Source of the DNA: a virus
Lineage: Duplodnaviria; Heunggongvirae; Uroviricota; Caudoviricetes
Virus record (IMG/VR): IMGVR_UViG_3300029190_000033
Location: 1 to 5,495 of that record
Reading direction: 5' to 3' (one strand)
DNA: 5,495 bases
The notes below the pieces were generated by a model, which did not search any database, was not told the origin of the DNA, and worked only from the letters and a program-made list of their open reading frames with translations. Position numbers and translations under genes: made by a program. This document shows positions 153 to 4,969 of the stretch, piece after piece (position 1 is the first letter of the stretch; every line of letters begins with the position of its first letter).

Positions 153-194
153 GGCTCTTTAACATTGATGGGATTGTCCCGCCGAAATGCGGGA
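153..194 (+). promoter_or_regulatory. Candidate nutL: boxA GGCTCTTTAACA (153-164) plus boxB-like hairpin TCCCGC / CGAAAT / GCGGGA (177-194)
   Basis: GCTCTTTAACA matches the boxA consensus (rrn-type GCTCTTTAACAA); a 6-bp stem with 6-nt purine-rich loop follows 12 nt downstream; sits between the candidate promoter and the N-like gene as in lambda and P22. Confidence 0.5.
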
Positions 195-301
195 ACCAAA
201 GAGTAGTTGGCTTTGGGGTGACGTGAAGTGCAGCTGCACGACGGCAACCGGAAGATAAGCACCCGGCGCGTCACCGCCAAAGTCAATCATCGGAGGTCAA
301 C

Positions 302-574
302 ATGACAGTAGTCATTACATATCTGGCTGACGATAACGCCAGAAATCGCCGCAGAGCACGCAGACAGGCTCAACGTGAGCAGGCAATGCAAGAACAGCGA
401 CTGGCGCGAAAAATTGCGCTAAAGCTCTCTGGTTGCGTCAGAGCAGACAAAGCAGCATCACTCGGAAGCCTTTGCTGCAAGGAAGAAGATGAACGCAGTG
501 GAAGTATTTGCCTGCCAAACGTAGCCATTTACGCGGCAGGATACCGGAAATCAAAACAACTGACGGCGAGGTAA
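302..574 (+). CDS. N: N-family transcription antitermination protein (P22 gene 24 / lambda N-like), 90 aa
   Basis: RBS GGAGG 5 nt before ATG 302. N-terminal arginine-rich motif DNARNRRRARRQAQREQ resembles the lambda N motif (AQTRRRERRAEKQAQ); the MTVVITY start resembles P22 gp24 as recalled. First gene after the nut-like site. Confidence 0.85.
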   Translation: MTVVITYLADDNARNRRRARRQAQREQAMQEQRLARKIALKLSGCVRADKAASLGSLCCKEEDERSGSICLPNVAIYAAGYRKSKQLTAR

Positions 575-577
575 GTG

Positions 578-802
578 ATGAATCAGACATACATTCCATC
601 ATGCTTGAGAAATCTGCCAAAGCAGAAAGCAAAGCCCCGCAAGCAAGCCATAAAGGACGCTAAGGCAGAGGTTATTGATCAAGCAATACAATTGCTCAGG
701 GAGGAGTTAAGAAGTGGCAAGCTCGAAGGAATGATGATGCCCTATCAGCGCGGATATCTATCGGCGATTAGTAAGCTGGAAGTATTGAAGAGTGAATTAT
801 GA
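578..802 (+). CDS. Hypothetical protein, 74 aa, charged and helical-looking; ral/17 position
   Basis: ORF with GAGG RBS 6 nt before ATG 578 (track start 575 is GTG with too-short spacing); begins 4 nt after the N stop. No recognisable motif; GC looks lower than N or erf. Confidence 0.6.
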   Translation: MNQTYIPSCLRNLPKQKAKPRKQAIKDAKAEVIDQAIQLLREELRSGKLEGMMMPYQRGYLSAISKLEVLKSEL

Positions 803-864
803 ACTATCTGGAATTTCCGGATGGTTCATTGTTTTGGCAGCAAACCACTTATTTGAGGTGAGAT

Positions 865-1335: not shown

Positions 1336-1349
1336 TACAAATAAGCACT

Positions 1350-1377
1350 GTGTATTCATTCCAACGAGTGAATACAC
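1350..1377. repeat. Perfect 9-bp inverted repeat GTGTATTCA / TGAATACAC with 10-bp spacer
   Basis: Read directly; 15 nt after the stop of the 156-aa ORF; no T-tract follows, so not a canonical intrinsic terminator. Confidence 0.6.
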
Positions 1378-1439
1378 GGAGCAATGTCGCTCGTAACTAA
1401 ACAGGAGCCGACTTGTTCTGATTATTGGAAATCTTCTTT

Positions 1440-1464
1440 GCCCTCCAGTGTGAGGGCCTTTTTA
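1440..1464 (+). terminator. Rho-independent terminator (tL-like): GCCCTC / cagtgt / GAGGGC then CTTTTTAT
   Basis: Perfect 6-bp GC-rich stem, 6-nt loop, immediate T5 run, in noncoding DNA between the moron ORF and cIII. A weaker hairpin CGCTTC / ACTC / GAGGCG + TTTT lies at 1480-1499. Confidence 0.6.
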
Positions 1465-1529
1465 TATGCATACCAATAACGCTTCACTCGAGGCGTTTTC
1501 GTTATGCAATCAAACAGAAGGAGCATCCT

Positions 1530-1700
1530 ATGCAACAGTTCGCTATTGCAGGGGCGGCATCGGTTCGCCCTTTCAACCCGATTTTATCGGTACAGCATTC
1601 ACGAAAAAACATTTTAACCGGAGCAGACTTTAAACAACCAAGAATGAAAAGTTTGCTCGAAAAGCTTTGGGATATTTTGAAACAACAAGGCCGTCCATGA
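1530..1700 (+). CDS. cIII: cIII-like protein (FtsH inhibitor family; P22 c3 / lambda cIII-like), 56 aa
   Basis: RBS AAGGAG 7 nt before ATG 1530. MQQFAIAG resembles the lambda CIII start MQYAIAG, and SLLEKLWDILKQQG resembles the CIII central helix (SLLERITRKL..RLIDILNQPG), as recalled. The track's longer ORF from 1425 would run through the terminator hairpin and is rejected. Confidence 0.7.
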   Translation: MQQFAIAGAASVRPFNPILSVQHSRKNILTGADFKQPRMKSLLEKLWDILKQQGRP

Positions 1701-1956: not shown

Positions 1957-2553
1957 ATGAGCAAAGAATTTTATGCAAGGCTGGCAGCCATTCAGGAGAA
2001 TCTGAACGCGCCAAAGAATCAGTACAACTCATTCGGCAAATATAAATACAGAAGCTGCGAAGACATTCTTGAAGGCGTTAAGCCGTTACTGAATGGCCTG
2101 TTTTTATCAATCAGCGATGAAGTTGTGTTGATTGGTGATCGGTATTACGTGAAAGCAACGGCAACTATTACTGATGGCGAAAACAGTCATACAGCAACCG
2201 CTCTTGCACGAGAGGAAGAAAGCAAGAAAGGAATGGATTCTGCACAAGTTACGGGCGCTACAAGCTCTTATGCACGCAAGTATTGCCTCAATGGTTTGTT
2301 CGGCATTGATGATGCGAAAGATGCAGATACCGACGAGCATAAACATCAGCAGAACGCAGCAGCAAAGCAATCAAAACCATCACCTACACCTGAACAGGTT
2401 CTAAAAGCATTCACTGACGCAGCATTGCAGAAAAACNNNNNNNNNNNNNCGTTCGCCAAAGCGTGGAAGATGCTCGAAGGCACACCGGAGCAGCACAAAG
2501 CGCAGGACGTTTACAACATCAGACGAGACGAATTAGAAGGAGCGGCTGCTTAA
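1957..2553 (+). CDS. erf: Erf-family single-strand annealing recombinase (P22 essential recombination function), 198 aa
   Basis: N-terminal region MSKEFYARLAAIQENLNAPKNQYNSFGKYKYRSCEDILEGVKP...GATSSYARKYCLNGLFGIDDAKDAD closely matches P22 Erf as I recall it. Contains 13 masked bases (2437-2449); frame is maintained across them. Confidence 0.9.
   Translation: MSKEFYARLAAIQENLNAPKNQYNSFGKYKYRSCEDILEGVKPLLNGLFLSISDEVVLIGDRYYVKATATITDGENSHTATALAREEESKKGMDSAQVTGATSSYARKYCLNGLFGIDDAKDADTDEHKHQQNAAAKQSKPSPTPEQVLKAFTDAALQKNXXXXXFAKAWKMLEGTPEQHKAQDVYNIRRDELEGAAA
2437..2449. other. Run of 13 N (masked bases) inside erf
   Basis: Literal n characters; the erf frame continues across them, suggesting 1:1 masking. 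Confidence 0.95.
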
Positions 2554-4203: not shown

Positions 4204-4969
4204 GCAAGATTGACTATCAGGCACTGCGTGAAAAAGCAGAGAAAGCAACTAAAGGAAGCTACATCGNNNNNNNNNNNNNNNNNNNNNNNNCGGCAATTTA
4301 ACAGGAGTTTTTGTTTGTCAAAAATGGAAAGGAGAGCCAGGTGGCGTGATTGCAGAATGTCACGTTAACTGCCTGGTTGAAACAGATGCTCAGGCTTATG
4401 CAAACGCAGAATTCATAGCAGAGGCTAACCCAGCTACCGTACTGGCACTACTGGATGAACGGGAAAGAAACCAGCAATACATCAAACGCCGTGACCAGGA
4501 GAACGAGGATATTACGCTAACGGTAGGGAAGCTGCGTGTTGAGCTTGAAGCAGCAGAGAACAACCTTATTGATAGTGAATGCCATGTTGCTGAACTGGAA
4601 GAAGCGCTACGCGATAAGCAGGCGTTACTTGAAGCCTCAGAAAAGCGCAACGCAAAATTACAAAGCGAGAATGCATACATCCGCAACCGGTTCAAAGAAC
4701 TGGACCTATTAATGGGGAAAAACATTCTGGTCATGCAGGCTGCCATTATCGAATGGCAGGCAACTGGCGACGCTAAGAGCGGACTAGCATGGATTTATAA
4801 CACACTGTTTGGCCCTGGCGAATTACCGGACGAATCTGAGAAAGATGCTCAGGCCTACTTTAATCGCAAATATGCACCGATTGACGAAAAGCTTATGGCG
4901 CTTCACAAGTGGTTTTGGGAACAAAGTGAAGCCGAGCGCGCCGCTGGCATTGGCATCAAAGGAGAGTGA
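4200..4969 (+). CDS. Ead/Ea22-like phage protein, interrupted by 24 masked bases; coiled-coil C-terminal half
   Basis: RBS AGGAGG 7 nt before GTG 4200. N-terminus [21 protein letters not shown] and downstream AQAYANAEFIAEANPATVLALLDERE are typical of Ead/Ea22-like proteins as recalled. Reading frame before the N-run differs from the frame of the long ORF ending at 4969, so the true start is uncertain (could be 4346). Confidence 0.6.
4267..4290. other. Run of 24 N (masked bases) inside the Ead/Ea22-like gene
   Basis: Literal n characters; the frames on either side are not the same. Confidence 0.95.

What the first reader, a model, noticed from the sequence alone, without database searches (positions are those of the whole stretch)
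1440..1499. Intrinsic terminator plus second hairpin just upstream of cIII
A textbook terminator (1440-1464) sits inside the operon between the moron and cIII. Downstream genes would then need N-mediated antitermination, consistent with the nut-like site upstream. The second hairpin (1480-1499) ends about 17 nt before the cIII RBS and could modulate cIII translation, as known for lambda cIII mRNA structure.
Basis: partly seen in the sequence, partly recalled or inferred. Interest (0 to 1): 0.4.

Follow-up and report, generated by a model that had tools for sequence, protein, structure and literature searches.

The report
Known phage sRNA PreS and terminator
The "textbook terminator" is the lambda tL2a terminator, which is also the 3' end of the recently described phage small RNA PreS (LPR1), and the second hairpin is a conserved stem-loop in the cIII leader, so the feature is real but already known and very common.

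Summary
The 1440-1464 terminator is not a stand-alone signal. It closes an 86-nt module (1379-1464) whose first 79 nt are identical to lambda LPR1/PreS, an Hfq-bound sRNA that ends at terminator tL2a and activates host dnaN translation (bioRxiv 10.1101/2024.10.31.621285). That stretch includes the mutationally defined seed and the whole terminator stem. Only the tail differs: CUUUUUA here, GAUUUUUUA in lambda.

Lambda has ea10 inserted between this terminator and hairpin 2; HK97-like phages such as this one do not. The block occurs in 2,248 of 5,426 complete E. coli genomes, and HK97, mEpX1 and phage 21 records already annotate the terminator.

Hairpin 2 (1478-1497, extendable to 1467-1508) belongs to cIII, not to PreS. 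In an independent scan, 98 of 101 copies sat 45-55 nt upstream of a cIII-family start codon, across at least 11 alleles. It always followed another terminator-like hairpin and kept an invariant U-run. It lies outside the known lambda cIII translational switch (Rfam RF01804), which this cIII allele does not match. I read it as a weak back-up terminator or leader element; that function is inferred.

Verdict: observation confirmed, interpretation partly right, novelty "already known".

The parts
1349..1378 (+). Strong hairpin of about 14 bp, loop CAAC, that directly abuts the 5' end of the sRNA.
   Evidence: Energy -21.7 kcal/mol, z = -6.9. A hairpin of -14 to -25 kcal/mol ends within -3..+1 nt of PreS +1 in 130 of 131 loci. 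It occurs with four unrelated stem sequences. The only exception is HK022, where IS903 is inserted.
1379..1464 (+). PreS (LPR1) sRNA homolog, 86 nt.
   Evidence: Nt 1-79 are identical to the 88-nt lambda LPR1, rebuilt from the authors' cloning primers (lambda 34011..33924). Only the tail differs. Mosaic junctions in other phages coincide with 1379 and 1463.
1379..1418 (+). 5' stem-loop of PreS. By size arithmetic, the roughly 68-nt processed form reported for lambda would start near 1397, in its loop.
   Evidence: Folds. One pair of an RNAalifold stem in this region changes on both sides between E. coli-type and Salmonella-type variants (AU:13, GC:7). The 68-nt species is reported in the preprint; its 5' end here is inferred.
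1413..1440 (+). PreS seed region. The M1 site CUG is at 1418-1420 (dnaN pairing). The M2 site GAA is at 1428-1430 (alaS pairing). The authors' seed deletion covers about 1414-1431.
   Evidence: Identical to lambda. Predicted duplex with E. coli dnaN -48..-16 is -28.3 kcal/mol, against -11.4 +/- 2.5 for shuffled seeds, 0 of 500 as good.
1440..1464 (+). Intrinsic terminator, orthologous to lambda tL2a and forming the PreS 3' end. Stem 1440-1445/1452-1457, then CUUUUUA.
   Evidence: Annotated as a terminator at the same place in mEpX1, HK97 and phage 21 records. The preprint equates the LPR1 3' end with tL2a.
1467..1508 (+). cIII-leader hairpin ('hairpin 2'). Inner stem-loop 1478-1497, invariant U-run 1496-1499, outer stem UGCAUA/UAUGCA (1467-1472/1503-1508).
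   Evidence: z = -3.9 and -5.4. On 25 haplotypes, 95.5% of cells are paired and pair 1480-1495 covaries (CG:19, UA:4, other:2). In 98 of 101 independent instances it precedes a cIII-family start. Lambda's copy is at 33512-33493, just upstream of cIII.
1518..1700 (+). cIII: Shine-Dalgarno AAGGAG 1518-1523; ORF 1530-1700 (56 aa, HK022-type allele).
   Evidence: ORF list. PHROG 550 'CIII', E = 1e-22. No Pfam hit and no RF01804 match.
154..574 (+). Context for antitermination: boxA-like GCUCUUUAACA (154-164), boxB-like hairpin (177-194), and the N-family gene (302-574).
   Evidence: Sequence read, fold, Pfam N_peptide, PHROG 271.

Best explanation
Window 1379-1464 encodes the HK97/HK022-type copy of the lambdoid sRNA PreS (LPR1). 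The hairpin at 1440-1457 plus its U-run is at once the operon-internal terminator tL2a and the Hfq-binding 3' module of that sRNA.

Proposed mechanism. pL transcription enters the region. Polymerases not modified by N stop at the U-run (about 1459-1464). The 5' end is cut just 3' of the 1349-1378 hairpin, since no promoter is visible upstream. This releases an RNA of about 86 nt, later trimmed to about 66 nt. Bound to Hfq, its single-stranded seed (1413-1440) pairs with the dnaA-dnaN junction and opens the dnaN ribosome-binding site, giving more beta-clamp and better phage replication. It also represses alaS. Polymerases modified by N at nutL read through both hairpins and express cIII, kil and erf.

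Hairpin 2 (1467-1508) is a separate, cIII-linked leader element. It most likely acts as a weak second intrinsic terminator backing up tL2a; I recall it as lambda tL2b. It may also serve as a structured 5' leader for cIII mRNA.

Shown here: sequence identity, structure conservation, synteny and target complementarity. Shown by others, in lambda only: expression, Hfq binding, dnaN and alaS regulation, and the phenotype. Inferred: everything about expression in this particular phage, the 5' processing step, and the function of hairpin 2.
For: Identity with lambda PreS:
- 79 of 79 nt identical to lambda LPR1, including the seed and both mutated triplets.
- The preprint states that LPR1 lies between ral and ea10, ends at tL2a, and is Hfq-enriched. 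It runs as roughly 88-nt and 68-nt bands made only in the lytic cycle. It activates dnaN and represses alaS, shown with compensatory mutations. Deleting the seed lowers phage DNA and plaque yield.

Target fit:
- The seed pairs with dnaN -48..-16 at -28.3 kcal/mol, with 0 of 500 shuffled seeds as good.
- The target site is nearly invariant across 75 distinct enterobacterial dnaN leader sequences.

Terminator under selection:
- Stem arms are constrained while the loop is free.
- An alternative stem in Salmonella-type copies keeps the hairpin and U-run.

Synteny:
- N-family gene upstream and cIII downstream.
- In lambda, ea10 splits the block.
- Terminator annotations in HK97, mEpX1 and phage 21 coincide with it.

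Hairpin 2:
- z = -5.4 for the extended form.
- One covarying pair and an invariant UUUU.
- 98 of 101 copies precede cIII alleles, and always after another terminator-like hairpin.
Against: - There are no expression, Hfq-binding or 3'-end data for this phage.
- The window's tail has the shortest U-run (5) and the weakest stem (-10.7 kcal/mol; family range -7.8 to -14.9) among the variants seen. Termination and Hfq binding may be weaker than in lambda.
- N antitermination should suppress the very termination that creates the sRNA 3' end, so the yield depends on incomplete antitermination or on 3' processing. This is untested.
- The PreS 5' end is taken from cloning primers and a northern size, not from mapped ends.
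- For hairpin 2, three annotated records flag no terminator there. Only one pair covaries, and a slipped register is equally supported by one covarying pair.
- The tL2b assignment rests on my memory of Luk & Szybalski 1983 and could not be checked.
Confidence: 0.85

Rival explanations
1. The terminator is the moron's own terminator. It would end an autonomously transcribed gp45-like gene, as the HK97 record labels it ('45: terminator, putative'), with no sRNA function.
For: The HK97 record attaches the terminator to gene 45. The upstream ORF is AT-rich, as morons usually are. By general knowledge (Juhala et al. 2000), morons often carry their own terminator.
Against: The same block, from 1345 onwards, sits behind quite different genes: ral in lambda and phage 21, and other ORFs in mEpX1, Sf101, mEp043 and P22-like phages. 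It therefore predates the moron insertion and is independent of it. Its body is identical to an experimentally validated sRNA.
Confidence: 0.05
2. Hairpin 2 is a translational regulator of cIII. By alternative pairing it would control access to the cIII Shine-Dalgarno sequence or AUG.
For: It is tightly linked to cIII: 98 of 101 copies, across at least 11 alleles. It is more conserved than the cIII coding sequence. Two alternative registers each have one covarying pair.
Against: The predicted structures leave the Shine-Dalgarno sequence (1518-1523) and the AUG unpaired with the hairpin. The documented lambda switch (RF01804) lies wholly downstream of hairpin 2. The invariant unpaired U-run after a GC stem points to termination or Hfq binding rather than Shine-Dalgarno occlusion.
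Confidence: 0.15
3. Hairpin 2 has no RNA function. It is a conserved 'linker' at a module boundary, kept because it supports homologous recombination between lambdoid phages.
For: It sits exactly at mosaic junctions. Upstream modules vary (PreS terminator, ea10 3' end, others) and downstream cIII alleles vary, around a nearly invariant segment of about 45 nt.
Against: The C-G to U-A double change keeps the stem. Loop bases vary while stem bases do not. The structure is far more stable than shuffles (z = -5.4).
Confidence: 0.12
4. In this phage the element is only a terminator. The 5-U tail variant would no longer bind Hfq, so no functional PreS is made.
For: This is the shortest U-run and weakest stem among the variants. 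By general knowledge (Otaka et al. 2011), Hfq-dependent sRNAs need a long 3' U-tail.
Against: The CUUUUU tail is one of the commonest haplotypes: 14 of the 131 loci carry the window's exact sequence. In all of them the seed stays perfectly conserved, which would not be expected if the sRNA were dead.
Confidence: 0.1

Closest known systems
Lambda PreS (LPR1) sRNA, Silverman et al., bioRxiv 10.1101/2024.10.31.621285
   Same: Nt 1-79 of 88 are identical, including the seed, the M1 and M2 sites and the terminator stem. It lies in the same operon (pL) and the same orientation, and is preceded by the same 5' flanking hairpin.
   Different: The tail is CUUUUUA rather than GAUUUUUUA. The downstream neighbour is the cIII leader rather than ea10, and the upstream neighbour is a gp45-like moron rather than ral.
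Lambda tL2a terminator of the early-left operon (Luk & Szybalski 1983, as cited by the preprint)
   Same: An orthologous stem-loop and U-run, at lambda about 33,949-33,924.
   Different: One fewer U, and no closing U-G or U-A pairs that would extend the stem. Termination efficiency and N-sensitivity were not measured here.
Lambda sequence 33,512-33,490 upstream of cIII (from memory, tL2b of the tL2 cluster)
   Same: Hairpin 2 is the same sequence: AACGCUUCACUCGAGGCGUU plus a U-run.
   Different: Lambda has five U's and the window four. In lambda it follows ea10. Here it lies 13 nt after the PreS tail, so the two form a tandem pair. The tL2b identity is recalled, not verified.
Rfam RF01804 Lambda_thermo (cIII alternative-structure / thermoregulator element)
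   Same: Both are RNA structures in the cIII 5' region.
   Different: RF01804 spans -13..+46 of lambda cIII, and hairpin 2 is 17 nt upstream of it. The window gives no RF01804 match.
Other prophage sRNAs made from operon transcripts or terminators: StxS (pR'/tR'), and AgvB/AsxR (pR' moron site)
   Same: Like StxS, this is an Hfq-associated lambdoid sRNA; StxS is cited in the preprint. From my own knowledge, its 3' end is an antiterminated terminator.
   Different: There is no sequence similarity. AgvB and AsxR map to the late pR' moron site and are primary transcripts of 51-60 nt. Rfam 15 has no family covering PreS.

Membership tests
PreS / LPR1 sRNA | Sequence homology to the 88-nt lambda LPR1 | tested here: met
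   79 of 79 nt identical. The tails differ by a 2-nt gap and one substitution. The lambda sequence was rebuilt from primers P810, P1107 and P1108.
PreS / LPR1 sRNA | Intact seed, including the triplets whose mutation abolishes dnaN (M1) and alaS (M2) regulation | tested here: met
   CUG at 1418-1420 and GAA at 1428-1430 are present. The 18-nt seed-deletion segment is identical.
PreS / LPR1 sRNA | Complementarity to the host dnaN leader | tested here: met
   -28.3 kcal/mol with dnaN -48..-16, 0 of 500 shuffled seeds as good. The target is conserved across Enterobacteriaceae.
PreS / LPR1 sRNA | Hfq-type 3' module: a U-rich stretch, a GC hairpin and a poly-U tail | tested here: met
   UCUUCUUU, then GCCCUC...GAGGGC, then CUUUUUA. 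The U-run is only 5, the shortest in the family.
PreS / LPR1 sRNA | Location in the pL operon, downstream of N and upstream of cIII/kil | tested here: met
   N at 302-574 and cIII at 1530-1700, on the same strand.
PreS / LPR1 sRNA | Expressed as an RNA of about 88 and 68 nt, bound by Hfq, that raises DnaN | not testable with these tools
   Shown only for lambda.
Intrinsic (Rho-independent) terminator, tL2a ortholog | GC-rich stem-loop immediately followed by a U-run on the transcribed strand | tested here: met
   On the minus strand the stem is followed by AAAGAAG, so it is not convincingly bidirectional, despite the phage 21 annotation.
Intrinsic (Rho-independent) terminator, tL2a ortholog | Stops RNA polymerase and is overridden by N/Nus | not testable with these tools
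   Inferred from orthology to lambda tL2a.
Rfam RF01804 Lambda_thermo (cIII translational switch) | Match to the covariance model at the cIII start | tested here: not met
   Lambda scores 88.5 bits at -13..+46. The window gives no hit at E <= 1 or at E <= 10 on 1330-1720. Hairpin 2 lies outside the model.
Hairpin 2 as an intrinsic terminator (lambda tL2b?) | GC stem plus a conserved U-run, with the structure kept by compensatory change | tested here: inconclusive
   UUUU is invariant in 25 haplotypes, and pair 1480-1495 is CG:19, UA:4, other:2. The U-run is short, a slipped register is equally supported, and no record annotates a terminator there.

The most novel reading that the evidence does not exclude
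PreS may sit in a fixed three-hairpin cassette whose two outer hairpins are functional. The first is a 5' hairpin with a fixed position but replaceable sequence: four unrelated versions, present in 130 of 131 loci. It would define or insulate the PreS 5' end. The second is the cIII-leader hairpin, which always follows a terminator. In phages without ea10, such as this one, tL2a and hairpin 2 would act as a tandem, N-sensitive gate. That gate would set the ratio of released PreS to cIII/kil read-through, and might yield a longer PreS isoform of about 120 nt ending at 1497-1501. Neither outer hairpin has a described function.
Probability: 0.2. Interest if true: 0.45.

Novelty: already known. Interest (0 to 1): 0.22.

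Why it matters
The hairpin is more than punctuation in the pL operon. It is the 3' end of a phage regulator that acts on the host replication clamp, and the module is present in about 41% of complete E. coli genomes. Recognising it improves annotation. The HK97 record assigns the terminator to gene 45. Some records extend the cIII CDS through the terminator (mEpX1, and likely Oslo). Rfam has no PreS family. For discovery value the finding is low, because the terminator was mapped in lambda decades ago and the sRNA was described in 2024. The functions of the 5' flanking hairpin and of the cIII-leader hairpin remain open, but these are modest questions.

Tried and rejected
- Rfam scans of the window and of the lambda ortholog region found no family for PreS or for hairpin 2. 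They returned only RF01804 in lambda and sub-threshold noise (RyhB-like E = 3.4; S15 E = 0.27).
- I looked for a sigma-70 promoter for PreS. None was reported upstream of 1379 on the plus strand, and the bases just upstream of 1379 do not resemble a -10 element by eye. A primary-transcript origin is therefore rejected in favour of processing from pL.
- A bidirectional terminator, as in the phage 21 annotation, is rejected because there is no U-run on the minus strand.
- RNase III cutting to create the PreS 5' end is considered unlikely. The end lies at the base of the hairpin, not inside the stem, and three of the four hairpin versions have only about 11 bp.
- AgvB and AsxR anti-sRNAs were checked as possible relatives. 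They lie at a different locus (pR') and are unrelated.
- Literature searches for tL2b and for papers on the lambda cIII leader found nothing usable. Altuvia 1987, Kornitzer 1989 and Casjens & Hendrix 2015 are not held.
- RNAalifold on the mixed E. coli-type and Salmonella-type alignment misaligned the terminator stems, so the stems were compared directly instead.
- A possible leader mini-ORF starting at the invariant ATG 1504-1506 was considered. It is 3-9 codons in lambda, Oslo and HK97, but 37 codons out of frame in the window and open-ended in P22-type leaders. It is too inconsistent to be a shared function.

Full report
**Setting**

The window is the early-left (pL) operon of a lambdoid phage, read on the + strand.
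- A promoter-like site lies at 79-107.
- A boxA-like GCUCUUUAACA (154-164) and a boxB-like hairpin (177-194) follow.
- An N-family gene is at 302-574 (Pfam N_peptide E = 5e-15; PHROG 271).
- An AT-rich ORF identical in size to HK97 gp45 is at 865-1335 (PHROG 1636, E = 4e-110; GC 33-39%).
- An HK022-type cIII is at 1530-1700 (PHROG 550), followed by an Erf recombinase.

**Observation**

Both hairpins are present.
- The terminator has stem 1440-1445/1452-1457, loop CAGUGU and tail CUUUUUAU. It folds at -10.7 kcal/mol with z = -2.1.
- Hairpin 2 is 1478-1497 (-9.9 kcal/mol, z = -3.9). It extends to 1467-1508 (-16.9 kcal/mol, z = -5.4).
- Pattern matching alone is not significant: 9 terminator-like sites against 6.0 +/- 2.6 expected.
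- Conservation is what establishes the feature. The block is 95-100% identical in more than 300 phage records and occurs in 2,248 of 5,426 complete E. coli genomes.

**What the terminator is**

Annotated relatives already mark it. mEpX1 has a 'rho-independent terminator' that maps to window 1440-1463. HK97 has a 'putative terminator' of gene 45, and phage 21 also annotates one.

In lambda the block is split in two. The first part (the 5' hairpin, a spacer and the terminator) lies between ral and ea10. The second part (hairpin 2) lies between ea10 and cIII.

A 2024 preprint (bioRxiv 10.1101/2024.10.31.621285) describes the ral-ea10 interval.
- It appears as bands of about 88 and 68 nt, and only in the lytic cycle.
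- It activates dnaN translation by opening the dnaN ribosome-binding site, and it represses alaS. Both effects were shown with compensatory mutations.
- Deleting its seed lowers phage DNA replication and spontaneous plaque yield in an Hfq-dependent way.

I rebuilt the lambda RNA from the authors' cloning primers. It maps to lambda 34011..33924.
- Window 1379-1464 is identical over nt 1-79. That stretch covers the 5' stem-loop, the seed, both mutated triplets (CUG 1418-1420, GAA 1428-1430) and the whole terminator stem.
- Only the tail differs: CUUUUUA here, GAUUUUUUA in lambda.
- The seed pairs with E. coli dnaN -48..-16 at -28.3 kcal/mol, against -11.4 +/- 2.5 for shuffled seeds, with 0 of 500 as good.
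- That target, the 3' end of the dnaA coding sequence, is almost invariant across 75 distinct enterobacterial leaders.

**PreS is a discrete module, and its terminator is under selection**

Mosaic junctions in other phages fall exactly at its ends. In mEp043 the shared segment is 1379-1463, in the P22-like phages it starts at 1379, and in Sf101 and mEp234 it stops at 1463.

A scan of viral contigs with the PreS 5' motif gave 120 loci and 54 usable haplotypes.
- Among 32 E. coli-type terminator haplotypes, the 5' arm is unchanged in 31 and the 3' arm in 29. The 6-nt loop has 10 versions.
- Salmonella-type copies use a different stem (GCCGCUC/GGGCGGC) with U6.
- The window's variant is at the weak end of the family, with five U's and -10.7 kcal/mol against a range of -7.8 to -14.9.
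- It is nevertheless one of the commonest haplotypes.

The same block follows unrelated upstream genes, so it is not the moron's terminator, contrary to what the HK97 label implies.

**How it most likely works**

No promoter is detectable upstream of 1379, and lambda PreS appears only when pL is derepressed. The RNA is therefore probably cut out of the pL transcript.
- The 3' end would come from termination at 1459-1464 by polymerases that are not N-modified.
- The 5' end would come from cleavage just 3' of the 1349-1378 hairpin.
- N-modified polymerases read on into cIII, kil and erf.

This is lambda logic applied by homology and was not tested here. One tension remains open: N antitermination suppresses the very termination event that makes the sRNA.

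**Hairpin 2**

It belongs to cIII, not to PreS.
- An independent scan for the hairpin motif gave 101 instances with adequate flanks. Of these, 98 are followed 45-55 nt later by a cIII-family start codon, with at least 11 different N-terminal alleles.
- PreS is adjacent in 39 instances, separated from it by 200-600 nt (mostly an ea10-sized insert) in 49, and absent within 700 nt in 13.
- The instances inspected are preceded within about 15-20 nt by another GC hairpin with a U-run: the PreS terminator, the ea10 3' hairpin, or others such as GCCCUCUCCGGAGGGCUUUUUUU.
- On 25 distinct haplotypes the stem is 95.5% paired. Pair 1480-1495 changes from C-G to U-A in four haplotypes. The loop varies, and the four U's after the stem never vary.
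- A slipped register (1476-1481 with 1500-1505) is also supported by one covarying pair, A-U to G-C. The covariation evidence is therefore thin and ambiguous between the two registers.

The documented lambda cIII translational switch (Rfam RF01804) maps to -13..+46 of cIII, 17 nt downstream of lambda's hairpin 2. The window's cIII allele does not match it at all.

My best reading is a weak intrinsic terminator that backs up tL2a. I recall it as lambda tL2b at about 33,494, which fits the position 33,512-33,490 read. I could not verify this. It may also act as a structured cIII leader. A translational role and a pure recombination-linker role remain possible.

**The 5' hairpin**

In 130 of 131 loci a hairpin of -14 to -25 kcal/mol ends within -3..+1 nt of PreS +1. 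Four unrelated stem sequences occupy this position. Three of them sit between a conserved GAAUAAGCAC-type motif and GAGCAAU. The only exception is HK022, where IS903 is inserted. Structure is kept while sequence is replaced. The function is unknown; it may be a processing or insulation signal.

**Comparison and novelty**

The element is a member of the PreS/LPR1 family on every feature that sequence can test. It is the ortholog of lambda tL2a. The preprint itself reports PreS in 2,537 genomes. It is unrelated to the pR'-site anti-sRNAs AgvB and AsxR, and no Rfam 15 family matched it.

Novelty: already known. Interest is low. The main value lies in correcting annotation and in two small open questions about the flanking hairpins.

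Noticed in passing
window 1349-1378; loci L005, L009, L010, L013 and others: A strong hairpin abuts the PreS 5' end in 130 of 131 loci. It occurs with four unrelated stem sequences, three of them between a conserved GAAUAAGCAC-type motif and GAGCAAU. Position and structure are kept while sequence is replaced, and the function is unknown.
   Followed up: partly
window 799-829: A 14-bp hairpin (-18.6 kcal/mol, z = -4.6) followed by UGUUUUGG spans the stop codon of ORF 575-802, just upstream of the AT-rich gp45-like moron. It may be another terminator or a mRNA-end structure.
   Followed up: no
L005, L008, L009, L013 and IMG/VR loci: Salmonella/P22-type PreS variants are 101-106 nt long, with a different seed (CUCGUUCUGGUUAAUCGAAAAAUCAUCCCUUGAUG...) and a different terminator. 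Hybrid forms also exist. The type-2 seed pairs best with the Salmonella dnaN leader (-32.3 kcal/mol, the lowest of 75 leaders), which carries UUUUUCGA where E. coli has UUUUUCAA. This hints at host tracking.
   Followed up: partly
window 1425-1700; L001 2582-2857; L009 1268-1516: The mEpX1 record annotates cIII from an upstream TTG start, so its CDS runs through the PreS terminator and hairpin 2. The Oslo record's cIII CDS is similarly extended upstream of the ATG that has a good Shine-Dalgarno sequence. The real start in the window is almost certainly ATG 1530, behind AAGGAG 1518-1523.
   Followed up: partly
window 1504-1506 (ATG) and 1504-1617: An invariant ATG lies in the 3' arm of the outer stem of hairpin 2. 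It opens a 3-codon ORF in lambda (MYK, stop overlapping the cIII Shine-Dalgarno sequence), 4 codons in Oslo-type leaders, and 9 codons in HK97 (stop overlapping the cIII ATG). In the window it opens a 37-codon out-of-frame ORF. The pattern is inconsistent, so it is probably not a shared leader peptide.
   Followed up: partly
window 1530-1700: This HK022-type cIII allele has no Pfam hit and no match to the Rfam cIII thermoregulator RF01804. If its translation is structure-controlled, the element differs from lambda's.
   Followed up: partly
L012 (HK022) 144-1200: IS903 is inserted inside the 5' flanking hairpin of HK022. This leaves PreS, its terminator and hairpin 2 intact but cuts them off from upstream pL sequence.
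   Followed up: no
window 154-194: This is a candidate nutL. Its boxA-like GCUCUUUAACA resembles, from memory, the rrn boxA, and its boxB-like stem UCCCGC/GCGGGA carries a 6-nt loop, CGAAAU. The 51-nt fold as a whole is no better than shuffles (z = -0.7).
   Followed up: no
window 2437-2449 and 4267-4290: Runs of N (masked bases) lie inside the erf-like ORF and a downstream ORF.
   Followed up: no
IMG/VR loci L136, L142, L148, L151: Some phages with no PreS motif within 700 nt still place a different strong terminator directly before hairpin 2 and cIII. In L136, L142 and L151 it is GCCCUCUCCGGAGGGC followed by seven U's. The arrangement of a terminator followed by the cIII-leader hairpin therefore seems general.
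   Followed up: partly
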